A DNA stretch of 64,000 nucleotides from Corallococcus exiguus (GTDB lineage: Bacteria; Myxococcota; Myxococcia; Myxococcales; Myxococcaceae). The notes below the pieces were generated by a model that had not been told where the DNA came from, searched no databases, and worked only from the letters and a program-made list of their open reading frames with translations. The stretch is taken from the NCBI RefSeq assembly GCF_012985275.1, contig NZ_JABEKY010000003.1. The stretch is one strand, 5' to 3'. The translations under genes and the position numbers were made by a program. Shown in pieces: positions 22,514-40,101 of the stretch. Positions within the stretch are counted from its first letter, which is position 1, and each line of letters begins with the position of its first letter.

Positions 22514-23392
22514 TCAGCCCTGCGCGGAGCGGGGCTTGCGCGTGGACTTCTTCGTCGTCGCGATCTCCAGCGACAGGTCCATGGCCCGCGCTGAGTGCGT
22601 CAGCGCGCCCATCGACACGAAGTCCACGCCCAGCTTCGCCAGCCGGGGCAGCCGGTCCAACGTGACGCCGCCCGACACTTCGATGGGCACGCGGCTCGCC
22701 GTCAGCTTCACCGCTTCGCGGATCTGCGCGTCGTCCATGTTGTCCAACATGATGACGTCCGCGCCCGCGGCGATGGCCTCCTCCAGCTGCTTGAAGTTGG
22801 TGACCTCCACTTCAATCTTCACCAGCCGGGGACCGTTCAGCTTCGCGCGGCGCACCGCTTCGGTGATGTCGCCACCTACCGCCGCGATGTGGTTGTCCTT
22901 GATGAGGATGCCGTCGAAGAGGCCGAAGCGGTGGTTGGACGCGCCTCCCATGCGCACCGCGTGCTTCGCGAGGCCTCGCATGCCCGGCGGCGTCTTGCGC
23001 GTGTCCAGCACCCGCAGCTTCGAGCCCCGCACGGAGGTCATCGCCTGCTGGGCCAGCGTCGCGATGCCGGCGGCGCGCTGCACCAGGTTGAGCGCCGTGC
23101 GCTCCGCGGCCAGCAGCGAACGCAGCTTGCCGTGGACGCGCGCGGCGACCACCTTCGGTTTGATCTCCTCGCCGTCGCGCTTGAGGACCTCCACCTCCAC
23201 CTCCGCGTCCACCATGTGGAAGACGCGGACGAAGGCGTCCAGGCCGGCGACGATCATCTGCTCCTTCGCGACCAGCTCACCGCTGCCCTCCGCTTCGGCG
23301 GGGACCACCGCCAGCGAGGTGACGTCCCCCGCAGCACCCAGGTCCTCGTCGAGGGACAGCGCGATGAGCCGATCGAGATAATCCTGCTGCAC
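22514..23392 (-). CDS. nadC: nicotinate-nucleotide pyrophosphorylase (quinolinate phosphoribosyltransferase) with a short K/R-rich C-terminal tail
   Basis: Hallmarks of the NadC family are RVLDTRKTPPGMRGLAKHAVRMGGASNHRFGLFDGILIKDNHI and MLDNM. The gene lies 9 bp downstream of valS on the same strand. Confidence 0.9.
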   Translation of the reverse strand: MQQDYLDRLIALSLDEDLGAAGDVTSLAVVPAEAEGSGELVAKEQMIVAGLDAFVRVFHMVDAEVEVEVLKRDGEEIKPKVVAARVHGKLRSLLAAERTALNLVQRAAGIATLAQQAMTSVRGSKLRVLDTRKTPPGMRGLAKHAVRMGGASNHRFGLFDGILIKDNHIAAVGGDITEAVRRAKLNGPRLVKIEVEVTNFKQLEEAIAAGADVIMLDNMDDAQIREAVKLTASRVPIEVSGGVTLDRLPRLAKLGVDFVSMGALTHSARAMDLSLEIATTKKSTRKPRSAQG

Positions 23393-23401
23393 TTCCGCCT
23401 C

Positions 23402-26400
23402 CTACCGGCGCGCCTTGCGAGCCGGCTTGCCCCGAGTGGTCTTCTTCGCCGCGGCCTTCTTCGCGGCGGTCTTCTTCCCCGCCGCCTTCTTCGCCGAAGC
23501 CTTCTTCGCAGGAGCCTTCTTCACCGCCGCCTTCTTCGCGGCCGTCTTCTTGCCCGCTGCCTTCTTCGCGGAAGCCTTCTTCGCAGGGGCCTTCTTCGCG
23601 GCGGACTTCTTGCTCGCCGCCTTCTTCGCGGAGGCCTTCTTCACCGCCGCCTTCTTCGCGGAGGCCTTCTTCACAGGGGCCTTCTTCACCGCCGCCTTCT
23701 TCGCGGAGGCCTTCTTCGTCGGAGCCTTCTTCACCGGCTTCGCCGAGCCCTCCGGCGCCTCGCGGGCGTCGCCGCCCTCCTTGGCCCGGTCGAACTCGCG
23801 CATCGCGTCGTCCACGAGGCCCATGCTCATGTACGCGACGCCCAGGTCGTGGTGGTCCGCCGGGGACAGCCCTTCCTTGGTGCCCTCGCGCAGCTTGTTG
23901 AGGGCCTCCTCCACCATCGGATCCGCGGCCTGGGGCGCCTGCGAAGCCTCTTCGGCTTCAATCTCGCCCTTCAGCTCCTGGCCCAGGTTCACCGCTTCGT
24001 CCTTCGGTGCCTGCGGCTCGGTGGCCACCTTCACCTGGGCGCTCTCAGGCGCGAGGGACTCGGACGCTTCAGGGGCTTCGGACTCGGTGCTGCCCGGCAA
24101 CGGCGACGGCGTCTCGGACATGGGGGGCTCCGGGGCGATGCGCTGGAGGTGATCCTGCAGCTTGACCGTGCGCTCCTGGAGCTCCGCCACCCGGGCCTTG
24201 TCCTTCTCCACCACGTCCGGCGGAGCACGGGCCACGAAGTTCGGGTTGTCCAGCTTGCGCTGCAAACCGGTGAGTTCCTGCTCGGAGCGGACGATCTCCT
24301 TCTTCAGGCGGTCGCGCTCCGCGTCCAGGTCCACCAGGCCCGCCAGGGGCACGTAGATTTCCAGGTTGCCGCTCACGAACGCCGCCGCCTGCGGAGGCTT
24401 GGCGCCCGGGGGGCCCACCACCACCTCGGACAGGCCCGCGAGCGGCATCAGGTACGCGCGCCAACGCTCCAACAGCTCGCGCGTCGTCGCGTCCGGGCTC
24501 TGCACCACCGCCTTCACCTTGGCGGACGGCGGCAGGTTGCTCTCGCCGCGCAGCGTGCGCAGGCCCTCGATGGCCGCGATGACCGGCGCCATCTCGCCTT
24601 CCGCGGCCGCGTCCACCCACGCCGCCTCCGGCACCGGGTACGCCGCGATGCAGATGCTCTCCGTGGGCCGGGACATCGGCAGCTTCTGCCAGATCTCCTC
24701 GGTGATGAACGGCATGAACGGGTGCATCAGCCGCAGGATGCGGTCCAGGCACGTCACCAGCACCGCGCGCGTGGTGTCCTTGGCCTCCGCGTCGTCGCCG
24801 TACAACGAGCCCTTCGCCAGCTCGATGTACCAATCGCAGAACTCCGCCCACAGGAACTGGTACAGCGTGGACGCGGCCTCCGCGAAGCCGAACGCCTCCA
24901 GCGACGCGCGCGTCTCCTCGGTGGCCTTCTGCAGGCGGGAGAGGATCCACCGGTCCGCCAGCGTCAGCTTGCGGCCCTCCAGCGGCGTCTTGTCCAGGCT
25001 GAAGTCGCCCATGTTCATCAGGGCGAAGCGGCTGGCGTTCCACAGCTTGTTGCAGAACGCCTTGTAGCCACCCAGGCGGTCCATCGACAGCTTGATGTCA
25101 CGGCCCTGCTGCGTGAGCGACGCCAACGTGAAGCGCAGCGCGTCCGCGCCGTGCGCGGGCATGCCCTGCGGGAAGCGGTTGCGCAAGGACGGCTGCAGCG
25201 ACTCCGCCTTCGCGCCGAGGATGACGTCCAGGGGATCGATGACGTTCCCCTTCGTCTTGGACATCTTCTCGCCCTTCTCGTCGCGCACCATCGCGTGCAG
25301 GTACACGGTGCGGAAGGGCACGTCGTTCATGAAATGCAGGCCCATCATCATCATCCGGGCGACCCAGAAGAAGATGATGTCGTGGCCCGTCTCCATCACG
25401 GACGTCGGGTAGAAGGTCTGGAGGTCCGCCGTCTGCTTCGGCCAGCCCAGCGTGGAGAACGGCCACAGCGCGGACGAGAACCAGGTGTCCAGCACGTCCG
25501 GATCCTGCGTCAGCTCCTTGCCGCCGCACTTCGGGCAGGACTCCGGCGCCGTGCGCGACACGATGACGTCCGCCGTGTCCTTCGAGCGCTCTTCCGCCGG
25601 GGTGCACGCCGCGCAGTACCACGCCGGAATCTGGTGGCCCCACCACAGCTGGCGGCTCACGCACCAGTCGTGGATGTTGTTCATCCAGTGGAAGTACGTG
25701 TTCGTCCACGACTCGGGGACGAACTTGGTGCGGCCCTCCTCCACGGCCTGGATGGCCGGCTTCGCCAGGGGTTCGATCTTGATGAACCACTGCGGCGACA
25801 GGCGCGGCTCCACCACCGTGGTGCAGCGCTGGCAGGTGCCCACGTTCAGCTTGTGCGGCTCCTCCTTCTCCAGCAGGCCCAGCTCCGTCAGGTCCGCCAG
25901 CACCTGCGTGCGCGCCTCCCGGCTCTCCAGGCCCGCGTACTTGCCGGTGTCCTTCGTCATCCGCGCCGCTTCGTCCAGGATGGACAGCATCGGCAGCTTG
26001 TGGCGCAGGCCCGTCTGGTAGTCGTTGAAGTCGTGCGCGGGCGTGACCTTCACCACGCCGGTGCCGAACTCCATGTTCACCAGCTCGCCGTCCGCGATGA
26101 CCGGAATCTCACGGTCGGTGAGCGGCAGCGCCACGCGCTTGCCGATGAGGTCCTGGTAGCGCGGATCCTCCGGGTGCACGGCGACGGCCGTGTCGCCCAG
26201 CAGCGTCTCCGGGCGCGTCGTCGCCACGGTGAGGAAGCGCTCCGTGCCCTTCACCGGGTAGCGGATGTGCCAGAGCGAGCCGTTCTTCTCCTCGTGCTCC
26301 ACTTCCAGGTCGGAGAGGGCCGTGCGGCAGGACGGGCACCAGTTGATCAGCTTCTGGGCCCGGTACATCAGGCCCTCTTCGTACAGCCGGACGAACACCT

Positions 26401-26881
26401 CGCGCACCGCGGCCGAGGACTGCTCGTCCATGGTGAAGCGCTCGCGGCTCCAGTCCAGGGACGCGCCCAGGTAGCGGTGCTGCTCACCGATGCGCGCGCC
26501 GAACTTGCCCTTCCACGTCCAGACGCGCTCGAGGAACGCCTCGCGGCCCAGGTCGTGGCGGCTCTTGCCCTCCGTCTTCTTGAGCTCCTTCTCCACCACC
26601 ATCTGCGTGGCGATGCCCGCGTGGTCCGTGCCGGGCAGCCAGAGCGCGTTGAAGCCGCTCATCCGCTTCCAGCGCGTGAGGATGTCCTGGATGGTCGCGG
26701 TGAGCGCGTGGCCGATGTGCAGGCTGCCCGTCACGTTGGGCGGCGGCAGCACGATGCTGAACGGCGGCTTGGAGGAAGGGGCTTCGGCGCGGAAGTAGTC
26801 GCGCTCCAGCCAGTGGTTGTACCACCGCGCCTCCACTTCGGAGGGCTCGTAGGCCTTGGACAGTTCAGTCGTGTCAGTCAT
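23402..26881 (-). CDS. valS: valyl-tRNA synthetase with a C-terminal extension of about 150 aa carrying histone-H1-like AKKA/KKAP repeats
   Basis: The N-terminus [17 protein letters not shown], the HIGH motif ([15 protein letters not shown]), KMSKTKGN (KMSKS), editing and anticodon-binding domains and a coiled-coil C-terminus are all present. It ends with ...[32 protein letters not shown]...GKPARKARR. Confidence 0.9.
23417..23755. repeat. degenerate tandem repeat of about 12-15 bp (GCCTTCTTCGCGG-type) encoding the Lys/Ala tail of ValRS
   Basis: Repeated GCCGCCTTCTTCGC(G/C) units were read on the plus strand. They are responsible for the artefactual FFAAAFF ORF 23415-24152. Confidence 0.75.
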
Positions 26882-26934
26882 TGCAAGCGGCCGGCCCCCG
26901 ACGGGGCCGGCGGGGAATCAGAGGGGACTGCGAA

Positions 26935-28197
26935 TCAATGCTGGGTCTCGCGGTCCTTGATGAGCCGCTCCAGCTCTTCCCGGATGATGGTCTCCGCCAG
27001 CTGCGGAACGACCTCCCAGGCAATCTTCTCGATGACCTCGCGGGACGCCTTCGACAGCGCCTCGCGCAGCAGCGCCTCTCCGCCATCCGCGGCCGGACGG
27101 GCGCGCGCGGGCGGAGTCGCCGGCGAGGGGCCGCCGATGTCCAGGGAGATCTCCTCCGCGCCGCTGGGCTCGGGCAGCGAGTCCTCGATGCGGATGCTCT
27201 CCGTGCGGGCCTGCGCCGCGGGCGGGGCGGCCGGAGCGCCCAGCCCGAACGGATCCCGGGCACGGGCGGCCGGAGGCACCGCGGCGGGCGGGGGCGCGGA
27301 CGGCAGCGGCGCGGCGCCCGGAGGACGCGGGAAGCCGCCCGGGATGTTCGGGGCGCCAGGGCCCGGAGGACGCGCGGCCATGCCCGGAGGCGGCGCACCC
27401 GGAGGACGCGCGCCCGGAGGCACGGCACCCGGAGGAGGACGCGCACCCGGCGGCATGGCGCCCGGAGGCGGCGCACCCGGAGGACGCGCGCCCATGCCCG
27501 GAGGCGGCGCACCCGGCGGAGGACGTGCACCCGGCGGCATGGCGCCCGGAGGCGGCGCACCCGGAGGACGCGCGCCCGGAGGAACAGCGCCCGGCAGCGG
27601 ACGCGCCGCACCCGGAGGAGGAGGCACACCAGCGCCCGGAGGACGCGCGCCCGGAGGCACGGCACCCGGAGGAGGACGCGCACCCGGCGGCATGGCGCCC
27701 GGAGGCGGCGCACCCGCGGGACGCGCACCCGGCGGCACGGCGGCGGCGGGCGGCGCGCTGACTGGAGCGCTCGGGGCGGAGGTCTGGGGCAGAATGCGCG
27801 TCGCGGCGGACGCGGGCATCGTGTTGGACTTCTGGCCCACCAGCGCCTTCACCTTGTCGAGGAGGATCTGGCTCTCGAAGGGCTTGGTGATGTGGTCATC
27901 CGCCCGGGCGGCCTTCGCGCGGTTCTCGTCGAACGCCTCGAAGGTGCCGGCGAGCAGCAGCACCGGGATGGCCTGCGTGGAGGGGTCGCCCTTGAGCGCC
28001 TCGCAGACCTCGTAGCCGCTCTTGCCCGGCATCATCACGTCGGCGAGCACCACGTCCGGACGCAGCTCGCGCGTGCGGGAGATGGCGTCCAGCCCGTTGT
28101 CCACCGCGGTCACCTGGAAGTCTTCCGTCGCGAAGATCATCCCGATCACCTTGCGGATGGTGAGCGAGTCGTCGGCGATCAGTAGATTCTTGGGCAT
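26935..28197 (-). CDS. romR: RomR-like polarity response regulator: N-terminal receiver, long proline-rich linker, conserved acidic C-terminal tail
   Basis: The receiver begins MPKNLLIADDSLTIRKV...DVVLADVMMPGKSGYEV...ITKPF, with an internal Met chosen as the start to give about 420 aa. A 250-aa PPGARPPGAPPPGAMPPGARPP repeat region follows. The C-terminus is EISLDIGGPSP...EVIEKIAWEVVPQLAETIIREELERLIKD. The domain order matches my recollection of M. xanthus RomR; no alignment was done. Confidence 0.65.
   Translation of the reverse strand: MPKNLLIADDSLTIRKVIGMIFATEDFQVTAVDNGLDAISRTRELRPDVVLADVMMPGKSGYEVCEALKGDPSTQAIPVLLLAGTFEAFDENRAKAARADDHITKPFESQILLDKVKALVGQKSNTMPASAATRILPQTSAPSAPVSAPPAAAVPPGARPAGAPPPGAMPPGARPPPGAVPPGARPPGAGVPPPPGAARPLPGAVPPGARPPGAPPPGAMPPGARPPPGAPPPGMGARPPGAPPPGAMPPGARPPPGAVPPGARPPGAPPPGMAARPPGPGAPNIPGGFPRPPGAAPLPSAPPPAAVPPAARARDPFGLGAPAAPPAAQARTESIRIEDSLPEPSGAEEISLDIGGPSPATPPARARPAADGGEALLREALSKASREVIEKIAWEVVPQLAETIIREELERLIKDRETQH
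27250..27750. repeat. proline-codon-rich tandem repeats (about 27-45 bp units) encoding the PPGARPPGAxPPG linker of the RomR-like protein
   Basis: Repeated GGCGCACCCGGAGGACGCGCGCCCGGAGG-like units were read directly. They are the source of several antisense artefact ORFs (26874-27728, 26881-28185, 27525-27761). Confidence 0.8.
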
Positions 28198-28314
28198 CGG
28201 CTCCGGCCTCGGGGGGCGCATACCCCCCTGAATTCGTTTGAGATTTCGGGCGAGCAAGCCTGCCTGCACGCCCTGTGTCAATCGGAGAAGCTTAGGATTC
28301 GCGCGTTGGGCCGA

Positions 28315-29181
28315 TCAAGAAAACATGCGCTGCAGGTCCAGTAACATCACCGGATCCGGCAGCCCCGGCGCCCGGAACGTTCCGGGAAGCTCGGCCGGCT
28401 TGAACTTCTGCAGCACACCCAGCACCCGGTTGGCCGCCAGCCCCACGTTCCGCCCCGCCATTTCCGTGAGGACGAACAACTCCTCCGCCTGGGCCGGCGC
28501 ACCCAGCAGCGCTGGAATCGAACAGATGGGCCATAGCGCCTGCGCGTGGGGATAGACGCCCGCCACCGGCCCGCTCTGCACCGGGAGGACGCTGAACGCC
28601 TCGCCCCGGGGTACCACCTGGGAGACGCAACCCAGCGGGACGCCGAACAGCACCCCCTGGGACTCCAGCACCAGCGCCCGCTCAGGGGGCTCGTCCGCAT
28701 AGTGCACGGGCCGGGGCTCTGGCGGGGTCGCCCGGGGGCCCGCCCGGTGCGGCAGCGCCTCCACGATGAGCTCCAGGTACAGCCGGTCCTTGTGCAGCAC
28801 CGCGCCCCGGCTCAGCGGCGCCAGCGAGTCCGCCAGTCCCGGAGGCAGCAGGAAGAACGGATCCCTCGCGACGTCCGCGACCTCCACCACTGCGCGCACC
28901 CGCACCGCGAGCGTGGGGCTGACGTCCAGGACCACCACCATGCCCGGCACTTCCTCAGGCAGGCCGCCGAGCAACGCGGCGAGGTCCTTCACTTCCAGTA
29001 CGCCGCGCAGACTCGCGCCGCGAGCGCCCGGCATCGCGACCTCGATGACGGAGGTGGCCTCCACCGCGTAGCGCGTCTCTCCGGCCTCCACCAGCAGGCA
29101 GAGCCGCCGTCCGCTTTCAAAGGGCACGGCCCGGGACCCTAGCAGCCTTCCAGCGTTGGGTGCTAAGCCCTGAACAGTCAT
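28315..29181 (-). CDS. CheW-like coupling protein with two tandem CheW-like domains
   Basis: Two segments resemble CheW domains (RLCLLVEAGETRYAVEATSVIEVA...MVVVLDVSPT... and ALVLESQGVLFGVPLGCVSQVVP...VGLAANRVLGVL). Choosing Met15 as the start makes its ATG (29179-29181) overlap the divergent GGDEF gene's ATG (29180-29182). The track ORF starts at 29223. Confidence 0.65.
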   Translation of the reverse strand: MTVQGLAPNAGRLLGSRAVPFESGRRLCLLVEAGETRYAVEATSVIEVAMPGARGASLRGVLEVKDLAALLGGLPEEVPGMVVVLDVSPTLAVRVRAVVEVADVARDPFFLLPPGLADSLAPLSRGAVLHKDRLYLELIVEALPHRAGPRATPPEPRPVHYADEPPERALVLESQGVLFGVPLGCVSQVVPRGEAFSVLPVQSGPVAGVYPHAQALWPICSIPALLGAPAQAEELFVLTEMAGRNVGLAANRVLGVLQKFKPAELPGTFRAPGLPDPVMLLDLQRMFS

Positions 29182-30568
29182 GGCGCGACTGCTCCTCGTC
29201 GACGACGAAAAGATCGCCCGCAATCTCTACGGCGACTACCTCACGGCCGCGGGACACCTGGTCACGGCGGTGCCCACCGTGGCGGACGCGAAGGCCGCCC
29301 TCTCCGCGGCGCGGTTCGACGCGGTGGTGACGGACCTCATCCTCCCCGGCGGCGACGGCATGGAGGTGCTTCGCCACGTGCGCGAGCGCTACCCCGGCGT
29401 GGAGGTGCTGGTCATCACCGGCCTGGACAAGGTGGCCCCCGCGGTGCGCGCCATCAAGAGCGGCGCGGCGGAGTACCTGGTCAAGCCCGTGGCGCCGGAG
29501 GCCCTGGAGCACGCGCTGCGCCGCGCGCTCACCACGCGCGACCTGATGCGTGAGAACGCGTCCCTGCGCCAGCACGTCGCGCTGCTGGAGGCGGGCCAGC
29601 GCATCGCCACCACGCTCGACCGCGAGCGGCTGTCCACGGCCGCGTCCGACGCGCTGGAGTCCATGGCCAACGCCTCCGCGGTGATGCTCCTGGAGCGGGA
29701 CCCTGGCGGCACGGGCTTCCGCTCGCACGGCATGCGCGGGCTGCCGGTGGACCTGCACGAGGCGCTCGTCCCGCTGCTCATCGAGCGGCTTTCGGGCACG
29801 CGCACGCAGGTGGAGCTCGACGGACTTCAAGTTCCCTGGCCGCGCACCCTCTCCTTCCCCGCCGTGGACGGCGAGCTGGTGCTGGGCCACGCGGTGCTCT
29901 TCCACGACAACGCGCCCGCGGAGCACCACGCGGAGACCGTGGGCTTCCTCGTGCGCAACTGGGCGCTGGCCCTGCGCAACCTGGGCCGCTTCGCCGCCGT
30001 GGAGGACCTGGCCTACGTCGATGATCTCACCCGCCTGTTCAACACGCGCTACCTGCACCTGGTGCTGGACCGCGAGGTGAACGAGGCCCTCCAGACGGAG
30101 CGCCCCTTCTCCCTGCTGTTCCTGGACCTGGACCGCTTCAAGGCCATCAACGACACGCACGGGCACCTGGTGGGCTCGCGGGTGCTGGTGGAGGCCGCGC
30201 GCGTGCTCAAGGGCTGCGTGCGCGACCCGGACGTGGTGGCGCGCTTCGGCGGCGACGAGTACGTGGTGCTCCTGCGCGGCACGGACTCCGGCGGGGCCCT
30301 CAAGGTCGCCGAGCGCATCCGCCGCACCATGGAGACCCATCAGTTCCTGGGCCGCGAGGGGCTGGCGCTCAAGCTCACCACCTGCATCGGCGTGGCCAGC
30401 TTCCCGGAGCATGCCCAGGACAAGGACCACCTGCTGGACCTGTCCGACCGGGCCATGTACCGGGGCAAGCGCGGCACCCGGAACGTCGTCTACATGGCGG
30501 CGCAGGACCTGGAAGCCACCCCGGCCGAGCGCCGTCAGAATCCCCCGCCCCCGCAGGGCCAGGGCTGA
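29180..30568 (+). CDS. response regulator receiver + GAF-like middle + GGDEF diguanylate cyclase
   Basis: The receiver is MARLLLVDDEKIARN...VTDLILPGGDGMEV...YLVKP. The GGDEF domain has RLFNTRYLH...LLFLDLDRFKAINDTHGH...RFGGDEYVVLL, with an intact GGDEY active site. Confidence 0.85.
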   Translation: MARLLLVDDEKIARNLYGDYLTAAGHLVTAVPTVADAKAALSAARFDAVVTDLILPGGDGMEVLRHVRERYPGVEVLVITGLDKVAPAVRAIKSGAAEYLVKPVAPEALEHALRRALTTRDLMRENASLRQHVALLEAGQRIATTLDRERLSTAASDALESMANASAVMLLERDPGGTGFRSHGMRGLPVDLHEALVPLLIERLSGTRTQVELDGLQVPWPRTLSFPAVDGELVLGHAVLFHDNAPAEHHAETVGFLVRNWALALRNLGRFAAVEDLAYVDDLTRLFNTRYLHLVLDREVNEALQTERPFSLLFLDLDRFKAINDTHGHLVGSRVLVEAARVLKGCVRDPDVVARFGGDEYVVLLRGTDSGGALKVAERIRRTMETHQFLGREGLALKLTTCIGVASFPEHAQDKDHLLDLSDRAMYRGKRGTRNVVYMAAQDLEATPAERRQNPPPPQGQG

Positions 30569-30582
30569 ACGCCGGACGCGCG

Positions 30583-30972
30583 CTACTTGCGCAGGCTGCC
30601 CACGGTGAGGTGCTTGGGCAGCTCCACTTCCGCGGGCACGCCGCCGCCGCCCTCGCCCACCGCCTCCACCTCTTCGTGAGACGCGCCGGTGGTGATGAGG
30701 CGGTACTTCTGCGACGCCTCGCGGTCGTGCTGGGCCTGCTCCGGATCCAACCGCGCGATGAGCTGCCAGAAGAGGGCCGCGTGCTCGCGCTCCTCGTCCA
30801 TGACGTGCCGCAGGATGGCCTTCGCCTCCTCGTTGTCCGTCGCGTCCAGGTGCGCGGCGTAGAGGTTGATGGCGTCCAGCTCCGCCTCGATGTTGAGCCG
30901 GATGGAGCGGGCCAGTTCGGAGTCCGTCAGCTTCCGGGGCACCAGCGAGTGGAACGGGTTCGTCTGCGGCAT
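30583..30972 (-). CDS. encC: ferritin-like encapsulin cargo protein (EncC-like) with a C-terminal targeting peptide
   Basis: It is the 129-aa C-terminal part of track ORF 30583-32100, starting at MPQTNPFHSL. The ferritin-like diiron ligands are IEAELDAINLYAAH and DEEREHAALF (E...ExxH x2). There is a Gly-rich linker GEGGGGVPAEVELPKH and a terminal LTVGSLRK, matching encapsulin cargo-loading peptides. The gene-symbol assignment relies on recollection of M. xanthus EncC. Confidence 0.7.
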   Translation of the reverse strand: MPQTNPFHSLVPRKLTDSELARSIRLNIEAELDAINLYAAHLDATDNEEAKAILRHVMDEEREHAALFWQLIARLDPEQAQHDREASQKYRLITTGASHEEVEAVGEGGGGVPAEVELPKHLTVGSLRK

Positions 30973-31128
30973 GAGGACCTCAGCGACAGGGAGGGTTTCC
31001 AGCAAGCGAGCGGGCAACGACGTTCCGTCAGGCCGGGCTGGAGGACGTGCGCGAGCATCCGTTCGGTCGCGAGCGCGGTCAACCGAATCCCGCTGGGGGT
31101 GCGTTGCGCGTGAACACCTGCCTCCGCC

Positions 31129-32658
31129 ATGCTCCCGTGCATGGAGACCCCCTCGCCGCTCGCGCAGCTGCTCCAGGCCCTGGACGCGGGGGACCTGGAG
31201 AAGGCACGGGTCGCGGCCGTGGCGCTGCAACGCGCCAACGCCCATACCCATCAGGTCGCCGCGGAGGTCCTCCATGAGCTGCGTCAGCCCCTCCTGGGCG
31301 CGAAGGCCTACGCCCAGCTGCTGGCCGAGGAAGGAGGCTCCAGCGGCCCGCTGAAGCTGCTGCTCGCGCAGGTGGAGCGGATGGAGCAGATTGTCTCCGA
31401 CTTCATCCGCCTGGCCAGCGAGCGGCCGGCCCCGCAGCAGCGGCTGTCCCTGGCCGCGCCCATCTGGGCGGCGGCGAAGGTGTTCAGCGTCAACCCGGAC
31501 TCGGCGCGCATCTCGCTGGAGGTGGAGGCCCCCGAGGACCTCACCATCCAGGGCAACGCGCGGCTGATTGAGCAGCTCACGCTCAACCTGCTCAACAACG
31601 CCCGCGACGCCATGTCCGGCCGGGGCCGCGTGAAGGTGACGCTCACGCGCGATGGCGCCTCCGCGGCCCTCTACGTTTCCGACTGGGGACCGGGCATCCC
31701 GGACGAGCTGAAGACGCGCATCTTCGAGCCCTACGTCTCCGCCAGCAAACGCGGCACGGGCCTGGGGCTCGCCGTCTGTCGTCGCATCGCGCAGGAGCAC
31801 CACGCGCAGGTTGCCCTGGTGCCGCCCACGACGCTGCGCGAGGTGCCGCCCCCGGCCACGGTGTTCCGCGTGCTCTTCCCGCCCACGGACGCGCCGCGCC
31901 CGCCGCGCAAGCGCCTGCTGGTGGTGGACGACGAGGGCATCATCCGGATGGTCTTCAAGGACCTGATGGACAAGGAGTGCGAAGTCATTGAAGCGGCCAC
32001 GGGCGAGGCCGCGCTCGAAATCCTCCGCTCGTCGCGCGTGGACCTCATCGTCACGGACAAGAACCTGCCCGGAATCTCCGGCCTGGAGCTGGCCCAGCAC
32101 GCGAGGAAGCTGGACCCCGCGTCGCGCGTCATCCTGATGACGGGCTACCCCTCGCTGGTGACGACGCAGCAGGCGCTGCAGCTGGGCCTGGTGGACTACC
32201 TGCTCAAGCCCTTCGACGACATCCGACAGGTGCGCGCGCTGCTGCGGCAGGCGCTGTACACGCCGGCCGCGCCGCCTGTCCCCGCCCCCAGCGCTGGCGT
32301 GCGCCGGGTGGACGTGCTGGAGGACAACCCGGCCACCGCGCGGCTGATTTCAGAGGCGCTGACGCTGCTGGGCCTGGAGGCGCGCGTCGTCGCGGGCGCG
32401 GAGGTGGCCACCATGGATCCGCCCGTGGGCGTGGTGGTGTCTTGGGACTTCGCGCCGGCCTACGGCAAGAAGGCGCTGGAGCTGGCCCGGGCCCTGAGCC
32501 AGGGCGCGCCCTTCGTCGTCCTGGCCGAGCACCTCACCATGGACACGGCGCTGGCGTCGCTGCGCGCCGGGGCCGCCGCGTGCCTGCCCAAGCTGCTCTC
32601 CGACACCACTGCGCTCAGCCGCGAGCTGGGCCTGGCCTTCAAGAAGACCGCTTCCTGA
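31129..32658 (+). CDS. hybrid sensor histidine kinase / response regulator (HisKA-HATPase + receiver + C-terminal receiver-like domain)
   Basis: The H-box is EVLHELRQPLLGAKAYAQLL. The N/G boxes are LNLLNNARDAM, SDWGPGIP and GTGLGLAVCRRI. The receiver is RLLVVDDEGIIR...VTDKNLPGISGLEL...LLKPF. A second degenerate receiver-like region follows. Confidence 0.8.
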   Translation: MLPCMETPSPLAQLLQALDAGDLEKARVAAVALQRANAHTHQVAAEVLHELRQPLLGAKAYAQLLAEEGGSSGPLKLLLAQVERMEQIVSDFIRLASERPAPQQRLSLAAPIWAAAKVFSVNPDSARISLEVEAPEDLTIQGNARLIEQLTLNLLNNARDAMSGRGRVKVTLTRDGASAALYVSDWGPGIPDELKTRIFEPYVSASKRGTGLGLAVCRRIAQEHHAQVALVPPTTLREVPPPATVFRVLFPPTDAPRPPRKRLLVVDDEGIIRMVFKDLMDKECEVIEAATGEAALEILRSSRVDLIVTDKNLPGISGLELAQHARKLDPASRVILMTGYPSLVTTQQALQLGLVDYLLKPFDDIRQVRALLRQALYTPAAPPVPAPSAGVRRVDVLEDNPATARLISEALTLLGLEARVVAGAEVATMDPPVGVVVSWDFAPAYGKKALELARALSQGAPFVVLAEHLTMDTALASLRAGAAACLPKLLSDTTALSRELGLAFKKTAS

Positions 32659-32743
32659 AAAAGACTCCGGCCCCGGGCGCCCCGCTTTCGCGGAGCCCAC
32701 CGGGGCCGGAAACCCTACGAAGCTACGGAGCCGTCAAGTCGGC

Positions 32744-34435
<1,692 letters not shown>

Positions 34436-34462
34436 TTAGCACTCGGCCATGTCGAGCGCCAA
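34436..34462. promoter_or_regulatory. CIRCE-like inverted repeat TTAGCACTC-N9-GAGCGCCAA upstream of groEL
   Basis: It matches the CIRCE consensus TTAGCACTC-N9-GAGTGCTAA at 16/18 positions, with the left arm perfect. It lies about 50 bp upstream of the groEL start in the 180-bp gap. Confidence 0.5.
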
Positions 34463-34566
34463 CATAAGGGCCGCATCGACGATGTCAACGGAAAGGGGCA
34501 GACGTGTGGGCCTGAGGACGCCTACTGGCCCGCCCGGGTGGGGGGCCCGGGCTGCCCGGGAAGGCC

Positions 34567-34923
34567 CTACTCCGCGAAGCGCACGAGGTTGAGCAGCTGC
34601 CCCATGTCCAGGGGCTTCTGCAGGGTGATGGCGACGCCCTTGCGCAGGCCCCGGTCGGAGATGTTGGCGTCCGTGCTGGCGGTCATCATCAGGACGGAGA
34701 TGCGCTGGAAGCGGGGATCCGCCTTCAGCATCTCCGTGAAGTGGATGCCGTCCAGGTGGGGCATCAGGTAGTCGGTGATGACCAGCCCCACGGGGTGACG
34801 CTCCATGATGTCCAGGGCCTGGAGCGCGTCCGACGCCGAGAACACGGTGTAGCCATGCATCTCCAGGTAGCGAGAGAGCATGGTGCACAGCTCGTAATCG
34901 TCGTCGACGACCAGGATGTTCAC
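34567..34923 (-). CDS. single-domain response regulator (CheY-like receiver)
   Basis: The receiver motifs are MNILVVDDDYELCTML...VITDYLMPHLDGIHF...TAS...KPLDM. The protein is 118 aa. Confidence 0.85.
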   Translation of the reverse strand: MNILVVDDDYELCTMLSRYLEMHGYTVFSASDALQALDIMERHPVGLVITDYLMPHLDGIHFTEMLKADPRFQRISVLMMTASTDANISDRGLRKGVAITLQKPLDMGQLLNLVRFAE

Positions 34924-40002: not shown

Positions 40003-40101
40003 GGTAGGGCCTCCGGACCTGGTGGCCGGCCCGGTCTTCAAAACCGGTGAGGGGCTGCGAGAGCAGTCCCTGGCGAGTTCGATTCCCGTGCCCTACCGCC
40101 A
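40003..40101 (+). tRNA. selC: tRNA with anticodon UCA and long variable arm: tRNA-Sec (selC)-like
   Basis: There is an 8-bp acceptor stem (GGTAGGGC / GCCCTACC), a D arm CCGG-ACCTGGTGG-CCGG, an anticodon stem CCGGT/ACCGG with loop cTTCAaa (U33, anticodon TCA, A37), an 8-bp variable-arm hairpin GGGGCTGC-GAGA-GCAGTCCC, a T loop TTCGATT, a discriminator G and an encoded CCA. The T-stem has one A-C mismatch. The 3' 58 nt are duplicated 6 kb downstream, typical of tRNA genes used as integration sites. Confidence 0.6.

What the first reader, a model, noticed from the sequence alone, without database searches (positions are those of the whole stretch)
26935..34923. Polarity/chemosensory-type signalling cluster: RomR-like regulator, tandem-CheW protein, REC-GGDEF, hybrid kinase, orphan groEL with CIRCE-like site, CheY-like regulator
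Seven consecutive genes encode signalling proteins plus a groES-less groEL and the encapsulin cargo. The RomR-like gene and the tandem-CheW gene are on the same strand 33 bp apart. The CheW-like and GGDEF genes are divergent, with start codons that appear to overlap at a CATG palindrome (29179-29182), an unusual head-to-head arrangement that would force each promoter into the other's coding region. The groEL copy has an imperfect CIRCE (16/18). This looks like a conserved motility/development control locus; the arrangement of starts deserves verification.
Basis: partly seen in the sequence, partly recalled or inferred. Interest (0 to 1): 0.5.

Follow-up and report, generated by a model that had tools for sequence, protein, structure and literature searches.

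The report
Known myxobacterial romR–gacA–groEL2 gene neighbourhood
This stretch is the Corallococcus copy of a well-studied Myxococcus xanthus gene neighbourhood (romR, a double-CheW gene, the cGAMP synthase gacA, encapsulin cargo encC, a hybrid kinase, groEL2 with its HrcA operator, and the groEL regulator MXAN_4468), and the supposedly overlapping divergent start codons are an ORF-calling artefact.

Summary
The genes, domains, CATG and 16/18 CIRCE are all present as described. The window comes from a Corallococcus. The locus matches M. xanthus MXAN_4460–4469 gene for gene, and most members are already published: romR, the two-CheW gene MXAN4462, gacA (MXAN_4463), encC (MXAN_4464), groEL2 with its CIRCE, and MXAN_4468.

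- **cheW2 start.** The double-CheW gene starts at a GTG (29127..29125), not at the ATG in the CATG. Of 47 related junctions, 45 carry GTG at that position. The CATG-ATG is open and in frame in only 9. Most homologues are 270–271 aa. This leaves a normal 52-bp intergenic region.
- **romR start.** romR starts at ATG 28197, giving 420 aa as in M. xanthus. It therefore lies 117 bp, not 33 bp, from cheW2.

The 52-bp spacer carries two conserved back-to-back "TGnTA…" extended −10-like elements, each 6–11 nt from its start codon. Published M. xanthus Cappable-seq data place the gacA transcription start 2 nt before the ATG, exactly 7 nt after TAAGCC. I therefore read them as two overlapping divergent promoters producing near-leaderless mRNAs.

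The "REC-GGDEF" gene is a Hypr GGDEF, a cGAMP synthase. The only mildly new point is that gacA, cheW2 and romR stay linked down to 39–50% CheW2 identity, while encC, the kinase and groEL2 do not.

The parts
26935..28197 (-). romR orthologue, 420 aa: REC domain with D53, Pro-rich linker, conserved C-terminal RomR-C
   Evidence: Pfam Response_reg. REC is 93% identical to M. xanthus RomR. The 4-species alignment shows an invariant C-terminal 47 aa and a shared MPKNLL start.
28198..28314 (-). cheW2-romR spacer (117 bp). It holds conserved TTGATC-N17/18-TAAGCT (candidate romR promoter, inferred), an invariant TTGACA, and a G/C hairpin running into the GAGG Shine-Dalgarno sequence.
   Evidence: Sequence. 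Conservation across Corallococcus, Citreicoccus, Myxococcus, Stigmatella and Archangium. RNAalifold predicts a stem but finds no compensatory pairs. A romR allele with its native promoter complements a romR mutant in M. xanthus (PMC2034494).
28315..29127 (-). cheW2: stand-alone protein of two CheW domains, 270 aa, orthologue of MXAN_4462, starting at a GTG
   Evidence: Each half passes the Pfam CheW cut-off. The AF2 model has pLDDT 90, and the 18 significant PDB matches (E<=0.001) are all CheW or CheA chains. The start is conserved. Homologues are mostly 270-271 aa.
29128..29179 (.). 52-bp divergent intergenic region. On the minus strand, TGC-TAGGGT (29144..29136) lies 8 nt before the cheW2 GTG. 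On the plus strand, TGC-TAAGCC (29161..29169) lies 10 nt before the gacA ATG. Together they form the inverted repeat TTAGCA-N16-TGCTAG (29139..29166).
   Evidence: The repeat is unique in the window with 0 expected by chance. It is present in 18 of the first 21 loci. Spacer sequence and length vary (46-56 bp) while the hexamers are kept. The M. xanthus gacA TSS is at -2 (PMC8844925 Table S2).
29180..30568 (+). gacA orthologue: REC plus Hypr GGDEF (3',3'-cGAMP synthase), 462 aa
   Evidence: Pfam REC + GGDEF. The best solved-structure match is 6d9m, the Geobacter Hypr GGDEF, at 169 bits against 121 for PleD. Ser333, Asn324 and GGDEY are present. It is 78% identical to MXAN_4463, which is named MxGacA in bioRxiv 10.1101/600031.
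30583..30972 (-). encC orthologue: ferritin-like encapsulin cargo, 129 aa, ending in the targeting peptide HLTVGSLRK
   Evidence: Pfam EncFtn-like. NCBIfam EncB_fam 111.9 bits against a cut-off of 90. 82% identical to the M. xanthus gene. EncC = MXAN_4464 with targeting peptide RLTVGSL (PMC11202242).
31129..32658 (+). Soluble hybrid histidine kinase (HisKA-HATPase_c-REC plus a C-terminal extension), orthologue of MXAN_4465; uncharacterised
   Evidence: Pfam. 76% identical to the M. xanthus gene. No paper in the library mentions MXAN_4465.
32744..34387 (-). groEL2 orthologue (547 aa) with no adjacent groES
   Evidence: Pfam and NCBIfam GroEL. 90% identical to M. xanthus groEL2. No groES anywhere in the window.
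34436..34488 (-). groEL2 promoter and operator: TTGACA (34488..34483), 16-nt spacer, TATGTT (34466..34461), overlapping by 2 nt the CIRCE variant TTGGCGCTC-N9-GAGTGCTAA (34462..34436)
   Evidence: The same 16/18 variant occurs in M. xanthus, Archangium, Stigmatella and Citreicoccus. In M. xanthus the groEL2 CIRCE overlaps the -10/-35 region and is the HrcA site (PMC9040617).
34567..34923 (-). Single-domain response regulator, orthologue of MXAN_4468 (negative regulator of the groELs); D51 corresponds to M. xanthus D61
   Evidence: Pfam REC. 76% identical to the M. xanthus gene and in the same position upstream of groEL2. Function from PMC9040617. The D51/D61 correspondence is my inference from the 10-residue offset in the M. 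xanthus annotation.

Best explanation
The region is the Corallococcus orthologue of the M. xanthus MXAN_4460-4469 neighbourhood. It is a syntenic mosaic of separately transcribed genes, not one system.

By orthology, each gene does what its M. xanthus counterpart does:
- RomR is the polar response regulator acting with MglA/MglB.
- GacA is a receiver-controlled Hypr GGDEF that makes 3',3'-cGAMP.
- EncC is a ferritin-like protein loaded into the EncA encapsulin through its C-terminal peptide.
- GroEL2 is the stand-alone second chaperonin. HrcA represses it at a CIRCE overlapping its -10, and the upstream single-domain regulator (MXAN_4468 orthologue) helps.
- The double-CheW protein and the hybrid kinase are uncharacterised.

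cheW2 begins at GTG 29127, so cheW2 and gacA are separated by 52 bp. That spacer holds two back-to-back extended -10-type elements, TGCTAGGGT facing cheW2 and TGCTAAGCC facing gacA. From them RNA polymerase starts transcription at or within a few nucleotides of each start codon, giving leaderless or near-leaderless mRNAs. Because the two core promoters overlap, they probably compete for polymerase.

Shown: gene identities, the conserved start, conservation of the elements, and the M. xanthus gacA TSS. Inferred: the cheW2 TSS, leaderless translation from GTG, and promoter competition.
For: Orthology and synteny:
- Every gene is 76-93% identical to, and in the same order as, its counterpart in M. 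xanthus, Archangium and Stigmatella.
- Published descriptions of the M. xanthus genes: PMC2034494 Fig. 1A for MXAN4460-4463; bioRxiv 10.1101/600031 and PMC8844925 for GacA; PMC11202242 for EncC; PMC9040617 for groEL2, CIRCE and MXAN_4468.

Start of cheW2:
- A start codon 18-21 nt before the RRLCLL motif is present in 22/22 genome loci. Across 47 junctions it is GTG in 45.
- The CATG-ATG is in frame and open in only 9/47. Single-base indels break the frame in six other Corallococcus-group loci (five named species or strains and one MAG), and stop codons interrupt it in more distant loci.
- The 18-codon extension has GC3 0.61 against 0.87 for the gene body, and 8 of its 18 codons are rare.
- Most homologues are 270-271 aa, including the M. 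xanthus protein.

Promoters:
- TAGnnT lies 6-9 nt before the cheW2 start. TAAGCC, or GATAAT/TATGAG in distant loci, lies 6-11 nt before the gacA start. Spacer sequence and length vary.
- Cappable-seq places the M. xanthus gacA TSS at -2 at the four time points fully shown in the table excerpt (0-18 h; the 24 h row is cut off). That puts TAAGCC at -12..-7 and TGC at -15..-13 (read against L019).
- tmoK has a TSS at -3 in the same table, so near-leaderless starts occur in this organism.
Against: - No TSS data for cheW2 were accessible. A promoter inside gacA that produces a leader across the spacer is not excluded.
- The gacA-side hexamer TAAGCC lacks the usual T at -7.
- With a spacer of 18-19 nt, TTAGCA is poorly placed to act as a -35 for cheW2.
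- In L037 gacA is absent but TTAGCA is still kept upstream of cheW2, with a 14-nt gap. TTAGCA may therefore serve cheW2 as a -35 or as a regulator site, not only as the gacA -10.
- Leaderless translation from GUG has not, to my knowledge, been shown in myxobacteria.
- The M. xanthus TSS was mapped in DK1622. I read it on the sequence of another M. xanthus strain (L019), assuming the spacer is identical.
Confidence: 0.85

Rival explanations
1. cheW2 starts at the ATG within CATG 29179-29182 (288 aa), so the two divergent start codons overlap and each promoter lies inside the other gene.
For: The ATG is in frame and open in the window and in 8 other loci. At least one public annotation uses the 288-aa form (P0001, Corallococcus sp. 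NCSPR001).
Against: The frame is broken or closed in 38/47 junctions, including several Corallococcus species. The extension has non-coding composition and rare codons. The region varies in length by non-multiples of 3. It carries conserved promoter-like hexamers, and a mapped gacA TSS in M. xanthus fits them.
Confidence: 0.04
2. The conserved inverted repeat TTAGCA-N15/16-TGCTAG is mainly the operator of a dimeric transcription factor that co-regulates cheW2 and gacA. It loosely resembles CIRCE arms (TTAGCA...TGCTAA), so HrcA or a similar protein could bind. It would not be, or not only be, a pair of -10 elements.
For: The two halves are near-perfect reverse complements. They are kept from Corallococcus to MAGs with 51-63% CheW2 identity. 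TTAGCA persists upstream of cheW2 in L037, where gacA is absent. A true CIRCE lies 5 kb away.
Against: In the ~50% identity group the left half becomes TTATCGCA, which read in the gacA direction is TGCGATAAT, a better -10. This breaks the palindrome while keeping the distance to the start codon. The position that varies (G or C in TTAGCA/TTACCA) is the free 'n' of TGnTA. The arm spacing is one base longer than in CIRCE, and the inner CTC/GAG of CIRCE is absent. gacA is not regulated by MrpC, the one regulator tested (PMC8844925). This rival does not exclude the promoter reading.
Confidence: 0.2
3. The whole seven-gene stretch is a single co-regulated motility/development control locus, with the kinase, the CheW protein and the three receiver proteins wired together.
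For: The order of all nine genes is conserved across Myxococcaceae and Archangiaceae. It holds three 'orphan' receiver proteins, one kinase and one orphan CheW-type adaptor. MXAN4462 is reported (as unpublished data) to be needed for fruiting body formation (PMC2034494). MXAN_4468 is reported to be phosphorylated by CheA kinases (PMC9040617).
Against: The genes alternate in strand and have separate promoter regions. EncC and GroEL2 have unrelated, established functions. In relatives with about 50% CheW2 identity, encC, the kinase and groEL2 are no longer next to gacA-cheW2-romR. gacA mutants have no growth or development phenotype (PMC8844925). None of MXAN_4461-4465 appears in the supplementary files held for the MXAN_4468 paper, which reports the pull-down in its Table S2.
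Confidence: 0.08

Closest known systems
M. xanthus romR locus, MXAN_4460-4463 (Leonardy et al. 2007, PMC2034494, Fig. 1A)
   Same: Same order and orientation: valS, romR, a two-CheW-domain gene, then a divergent REC-GGDEF gene. RomR is 420 aa with identical domain layout and an identical C-terminal 47 aa. The cheW2-romR gap is 117 bp here and 116 bp in M. xanthus.
   Different: Different genus (Corallococcus). The Pro-rich linker differs in repeat number and sequence. ValRS is 1159 aa here and 1297 aa in M. xanthus.
Hypr GGDEF cGAMP synthases: GacA of Geobacter (PDB 6d9m; PMC6456294) and MxGacA, MXAN_4463
   Same: REC-GGDEF architecture. Ser at the specificity position (GHLVGS), Asn at the sugar-face position, and a GGDE[F/Y] motif with central Asp. 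The closest solved structure is the Geobacter Hypr GGDEF domain.
   Different: Thr289 replaces the 'cross-dimer' Tyr304 of Geobacter GacA. M. xanthus GacA has the same Thr. Enzyme activity was not tested for the Corallococcus protein.
M. xanthus groEL2 / CIRCE / MXAN_4468 module (Zhuo et al. 2022, PMC9040617)
   Same: A stand-alone groEL with a single-domain response-regulator gene upstream. The spacer is 179 bp here and 169 bp in M. xanthus. The CIRCE variant is identical and overlaps the -10.
   Different: M. xanthus has one extra 367-aa gene without Pfam domains between the kinase and groEL2; it is absent here. The response regulator is annotated 10 residues longer in M. xanthus.
M. xanthus EncC, MXAN_4464 (PDB 7s8t)
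   Same: 129-130 aa ferritin-like cargo, 82% identical, with a C-terminal LTVGSL targeting peptide.
   Different: No encapsulin shell gene is adjacent. This is also true in M. xanthus, where encA (MXAN_3556, number from my own knowledge) lies elsewhere.
Divergent back-to-back overlapping promoters and leaderless mRNAs, as common in Actinobacteria (general knowledge, not checked here)
   Same: An extended -10-type element 6-11 nt upstream of the start codon, no conserved Shine-Dalgarno sequence, and a mapped TSS 2 nt before the gacA ATG in M. xanthus.
   Different: The cheW2 start codon is GTG. The gacA-side hexamer lacks the T at -7. The cheW2 TSS is not mapped.

Membership tests
RomR (Keilberg et al. 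2012 definition: RomR-REC plus RomR-C) | N-terminal receiver domain with the phosphorylatable Asp (D53) | tested here: met
   Pfam Response_reg 77.5 bits. 93% identical to M. xanthus RomR residues 1-135, and D53 is invariant. The role of D53 is from PMC2034494.
RomR (Keilberg et al. 2012 definition: RomR-REC plus RomR-C) | Pro-rich linker between REC and the C-terminus | tested here: met
   Residues ~140-330 are PPGA/RPPG repeats that align with the linkers of the M. xanthus, Archangium and Stigmatella proteins.
RomR (Keilberg et al. 2012 definition: RomR-REC plus RomR-C) | Conserved Glu-rich C-terminal region (RomR-C) | tested here: met
   The last 47 residues (GGEALLREALSKASREVIEKIAWEVVPQLAETIIREELERLIKDRETQH) are identical to M. 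xanthus.
RomR (Keilberg et al. 2012 definition: RomR-REC plus RomR-C) | Polar localisation and action with MglA/MglB | not testable with these tools
   Needs cell biology. Inferred from orthology only.
CheW-like adaptor, tandem | Two CheW/P5 folds in one polypeptide, with no kinase domains | tested here: met
   Each half passes the Pfam gathering score. AF2 gives pLDDT 90 and pTM 0.87, and the 18 significant PDB hits (E<=0.001) are all CheW or CheA chains. No other Pfam domain was found.
CheW-like adaptor, tandem | Binding to a chemoreceptor and a CheA kinase | not tested
   No interaction data. No che genes are adjacent.
Hypr GGDEF (GMP-AMP cyclase, GacA type) | Ser/Thr instead of Asp at position 348 (Geobacter numbering) | tested here: met
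   GHLVGS with Ser333 aligns column for column with GHLVGS of 6d9m. The feature is defined in PMC6456294.
Hypr GGDEF (GMP-AMP cyclase, GacA type) | GGDE[F/Y] motif with central Asp, plus the catalytic Glu and Asn339 | tested here: met
   GGDEY (D359, E360) and N324.
Hypr GGDEF (GMP-AMP cyclase, GacA type) | Signature cross-dimer Tyr304 | tested here: not met
   Thr289 occupies this position. The M. xanthus, Archangium and Stigmatella orthologues also lack Tyr here: Thr, Thr and Met. MxGacA is nevertheless reported as a cGAMP synthase, so this residue does not decide membership.
Hypr GGDEF (GMP-AMP cyclase, GacA type) | Produces 3',3'-cGAMP | not testable with these tools
   Needs an enzyme assay. 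Reported for the M. xanthus orthologue (PMC8844925).
CIRCE / HrcA operator | TTAGCACTC-N9-GAGTGCTAA inverted repeat in a chaperone gene promoter | tested here: met
   16/18 match with exact 9-nt spacing, 48 nt upstream of groEL and overlapping the -10. The same variant occurs in M. xanthus.
CIRCE / HrcA operator | Bound by HrcA | not testable with these tools
   The CIRCE in the M. xanthus groEL2 promoter is described as the HrcA binding site (PMC9040617). The element has the same sequence in the M. xanthus locus examined here.
Encapsulin ferritin-like cargo (EncB/EncC family) | Ferritin-like domain plus the C-terminal targeting peptide LTVGSL | tested here: met
   NCBIfam EncB_fam 111.9 bits against a cut-off of 90. 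Pfam EncFtn-like. C-terminus HLTVGSLRK here, RLTVGSL in EncC.

The most novel reading that the evidence does not exclude
gacA, cheW2 and romR form a conserved three-gene functional module. The stand-alone double-CheW protein would dock one or both 'orphan' receiver proteins (RomR, whose kinase is unknown, and GacA) to a CheA-type kinase array such as Frz. That would link chemosensory input, cGAMP synthesis and cell polarity. The overlapping back-to-back promoters would set the ratio of GacA to CheW2/RomR expression.
Probability: 0.12. Interest if true: 0.55.

Novelty: already known. Interest (0 to 1): 0.15.

Why it matters
As it stands this is an annotation clean-up of a known locus in a close relative of M. 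xanthus.

Practical value:
- It corrects two start codons. cheW2 is 270 aa, not 288 or 302. romR is 420 aa, not 448.
- It identifies the REC-GGDEF gene as a cGAMP synthase, not a c-di-GMP synthase.

Modest biological points:
- The two divergent genes appear to be expressed as leaderless or near-leaderless mRNAs from two overlapping promoters packed into about 50 bp.
- gacA, cheW2 and romR stay together in relatives where the rest of the neighbourhood has dispersed.

This linkage would only matter if it reflects a functional link between the polarity regulator RomR, whose kinase is still unknown, a CheW-type adaptor, and cGAMP signalling.

Tried and rejected
- **CheW ORF starting at the longest TTG (29223) or at the CATG ATG (29181).** Rejected on comparative frame analysis and composition.
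- **Intergenic palindrome as a second CIRCE.** Arm spacing is 16 rather than 15, the inner CTC/GAG is absent, and the palindrome breaks in distant loci while the -10-like hexamers persist. Kept only as a minor rival.
- **LexA-box-like GTTCAGG next to the CATG.** It is specific to Corallococcus and, by eye, the rest of the box does not match. The box consensus was recalled from memory, so I dropped it.
- **Sigma-54 -24/-12 reading of GGCTTAGCA.** The GG/GC spacing is wrong.
- **Hybrid kinase as the cognate kinase of GacA on grounds of proximity.** The adjacency is lost in the ~50% identity group, so synteny gives no support. Not tested further.
- **romR 5'-UTR hairpin as a structured RNA.** RNAalifold finds an invariant stem with no compensatory changes, and there is no Rfam hit. 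Left as a side note.
- **Experimental links within the cluster.** None of MXAN_4461-4465 appears in the supplementary files held for the MXAN_4468 paper, which include its pull-down table. MXAN_4462 is not in the Cappable-seq tables of PMC8844925, which list only c-di-GMP genes.

Full report
**What is in the sequence**

The window has about 70% G+C, so ORF lists are full of shadow ORFs. I therefore used a third-position GC frame plot together with Pfam. These give the following genes:
- a receiver protein at 26935..28281(-), as the longest ORF;
- a CheW protein at 28315..29223(-), as the longest ORF;
- REC-GGDEF at 29180..30568(+);
- a small EncFtn-like/rubrerythrin-like gene at 30583..30972(-);
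- HisKA-HATPase_c-REC at 31129..32658(+);
- groEL at 32744..34387(-);
- a single receiver domain at 34567..34923(-).

ValRS lies on one flank (23402..26881) and a TPR/Zincin_1 gene on the other. CATG is at 29179-29182. A CIRCE-like repeat, TTGGCGCTC-N9-GAGTGCTAA, lies at 34462..34436 on the minus strand. It matches the consensus at 16/18, is unique in the window, and none is expected by chance. No groES-like sequence exists in the 64 kb. The raw observation is therefore real.

**Where it comes from and what it matches**

A genome scan with the CheW protein returned 18 loci. The closest is Corallococcus coralloides (97% identity), followed by other Corallococcus species, Citreicoccus and Myxococcaceae MAGs. 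The loci around the M. xanthus, Archangium violaceum and Stigmatella homologues have the same genes in the same order and orientation.

A tblastn table gives these identities to M. xanthus:

| Gene | Identity to M. xanthus |
|---|---|
| RomR (REC domain) | 93% |
| CheW2 | 78% |
| GGDEF protein | 79% |
| EncC | 81% |
| Kinase | 76% |
| GroEL2 | 90% |
| Single receiver | 76% |

The M. xanthus genes are published.
- Leonardy et al. 2007 (PMC2034494, Fig. [quoted passage not shown] They state that MXAN4462 is needed for fruiting body formation, citing unpublished data.
- MXAN_4463 is MxGacA, a Hypr GGDEF.
- MXAN_4464 is EncC.
- groEL2 (MXAN_4467), its CIRCE and the upstream orphan regulator MXAN_4468 are described in PMC9040617.

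**romR**

The M. xanthus, Archangium and Stigmatella proteins all start MPKNLL. The window protein from ATG 28197 is 420 aa, the same length as M. xanthus RomR. D53 is invariant, a Pro-rich linker is present, and the last 47 residues are identical to M. xanthus. The assignment holds.

The TTG at 28281, which gives the 448-aa ORF and the "33 bp" gap, is part of an invariant TTGACA in the spacer. The real gap to cheW2 is 117 bp, against 116 in M. xanthus.

**The divergent starts**

- A start codon 18-21 nt upstream of the conserved RRLCLL motif is present in all 22 genome-derived sequences: GTG in 21 and ATG in one.
- After adding 41 metagenomic loci, 47 junctions could be analysed. The conserved position carries GTG in 45. 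The CATG-ATG is in frame and open in only 9: the window, seven Corallococcus loci and one MAG.
- In six other Corallococcus-group loci (C. interemptor, C. llansteffanensis, C. sicarius, C. carmarthensis, strain CA053C and the MAG PMG_225) single-base indels break the frame. In more distant loci TAG stops intervene.
- The 18 extra codons have GC3 0.61 against 0.87 for the gene body. Eight of them are codons used at 5 per 1000 or less in neighbouring genes, including TTA and CTA.
- Most of the 120 listed database homologues are 270-271 aa, including the M. xanthus protein.

I conclude that cheW2 runs 28315..29127 (270 aa) and that the intergenic region is 29128..29179, 52 bp. In relatives the region is 46-56 bp, with length differences that are not multiples of three.

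**What the 52 bp contain**

Two blocks are conserved while everything between and around them varies.
- GCTTA(G/C)CA is the first block.
- TGCTAGnnT follows 15-16 nt later.

Read towards cheW2, the second block is TGn-TAGnnT, an extended -10 form, ending 6-9 nt before the GTG. Read towards gacA, the first block is TG(C/G)-TAAGCC, ending 6-11 nt before the ATG. The one variable base in that block is the free "n" of TGnTA.

In the group with about 50% CheW2 identity, the gacA-side block becomes TGCGATAAT. This is a better -10 and it breaks the palindrome.

Table S2 of PMC8844925 lists the Cappable-seq TSS of M. xanthus gacA at 5525822, two bases before the ATG at 5525824. The rows for 0, 6, 12 and 18 h show this in full, with high scores; the 24 h row is cut off in the excerpt. 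On the M. xanthus spacer that puts TAAGCC at -12..-7 and TGC at -15..-13. The same table has a -3 TSS for tmoK, so near-leaderless starts occur in this organism.

I therefore read the spacer as two overlapping, back-to-back core promoters that give leaderless or near-leaderless mRNAs. The gacA half rests on experimental data from the orthologue. The cheW2 half is inferred from symmetry and position.

Caveats:
- TAAGCC lacks the usual T at -7.
- In one metagenomic contig (L037) gacA is absent but TTAGCA is still kept, now 14 nt from TGCTAC. TTAGCA may also act as a -35 or as a regulator site for cheW2.

**The GGDEF protein**

Its best solved-structure match is 6d9m, the Geobacter Hypr GGDEF domain, at 169 bits against 121 for PleD. 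It carries the signature Ser (GHLVGS, Ser333), Asn324 and GGDEY. These features are defined in PMC6456294. Thr289 replaces the cross-dimer Tyr304, as it does in M. xanthus GacA. It is therefore a GacA orthologue, expected to make 3',3'-cGAMP.

PMC8844925 reports that gacA is about 2-fold up in development, is not MrpC-regulated, and is dispensable for growth and development.

**CheW2**

Each half passes the Pfam CheW threshold. An AlphaFold model built from 38 homologues has pLDDT 90 and pTM 0.87. Its 18 significant PDB matches (E<=0.001) are all CheW or CheA chains. No curated NCBIfam model covers it.

**groEL2 and its regulator**

The promoter is TTGACA-16-TATGTT. The CIRCE left arm overlaps the -10 by 2 nt. 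This matches the published statement that the CIRCE and the -10/-35 region overlap at groEL2. The same two deviations from consensus are shared by Corallococcus, Citreicoccus, M. xanthus, Archangium and Stigmatella. The regulator-groEL2 spacer is 179 bp here and 169 bp in M. xanthus.

**Is it one system?**

Gene order is conserved through Myxococcaceae and Archangiaceae, but those genomes are broadly collinear, so this says little. In the metagenomic loci, gacA-cheW2-romR stay together in every contig with enough flank, down to 39-50% CheW2 identity. The one exception is L037. In contrast, encC, the kinase and groEL2 are absent from the 4-5 kb beside gacA in the ~50% group. There, romR follows cheW2 after only about 35 nt.

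The conserved unit is therefore the triad, not the seven genes. I found no paper in the library that notes this linkage. It is a lead, not a demonstrated functional link.

**Verdict**

This is an already known locus in a new genus. Interest is low.

Noticed in passing
window 28198..28314 (minus strand): The cheW2-romR spacer holds conserved TTGATC (overlapping the cheW2 stop codon), a 17-18-nt variable spacer, then TAAGCT: a candidate romR promoter. It also holds an invariant TTGACA, and a hairpin (AAUUC-A-GGGGGG / CCCCCC-GAGG) whose 3' arm includes the romR Shine-Dalgarno sequence. M. xanthus (GGGGAG/CTCCCC) and Citreicoccus (GGGGGT/ACCCCC) look compensatory by eye, but RNAalifold counts no compensatory pairs.
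   Followed up: partly
window 23402..23750 (minus strand; ValRS residues ~1042-1156): The valine-tRNA ligase carries a Lys/Ala-rich C-terminal tail that weakly matches histone H1-like DNA-binding protein models (45.9 bits, below the cut-off of 80). ValRS length varies among relatives: 1159 aa here, 1297 aa in M. xanthus.
   Followed up: no
window 40003..40097 (+): A selenocysteine tRNA (Rfam tRNA-Sec, 70.5 bits) is the only Rfam hit above gathering score in the window.
   Followed up: no
L019 3414..4517 (M. xanthus) versus window 32659..32743: M. xanthus has an extra 367-aa gene with no Pfam domain between the hybrid kinase and groEL2. Corallococcus, Archangium and Stigmatella have only a short convergent gap there (85 bp in the window).
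   Followed up: no
L037 530..650: In this metagenomic contig, cheW2 is preceded by a same-strand gene for a putative secreted protein with a CxxCH motif, not by gacA. TTAGCA-N14-TGCTACGGT is still present upstream of the cheW2 GTG, and the TTAGCA-to-TACGGT spacing becomes 17 nt.
   Followed up: partly
L017 853..1125: In this more distant Myxococcaceae MAG, tblastn finds no match to the single-domain regulator (MXAN_4468 orthologue), and only 272 bp separate groEL2 from the TPR/Zincin gene. Its CIRCE is closer to consensus (17/18).
   Followed up: no
window 27000..27800: The RomR Pro-rich linker raises G+C to 0.77-0.80 and creates long spurious ORFs in other frames, for example the 1806-aa ORF at 22595..28015(+). 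Linker length and repeat pattern differ markedly between species, while REC and RomR-C are almost invariant.
   Followed up: partly
window 32275..32658 (kinase residues ~383-509): The hybrid kinase has a C-terminal extension of about 125 aa after its receiver domain, with no Pfam match. It begins RRVDVLEDNPATARL, which resembles the start of a second, degenerate receiver.
   Followed up: no
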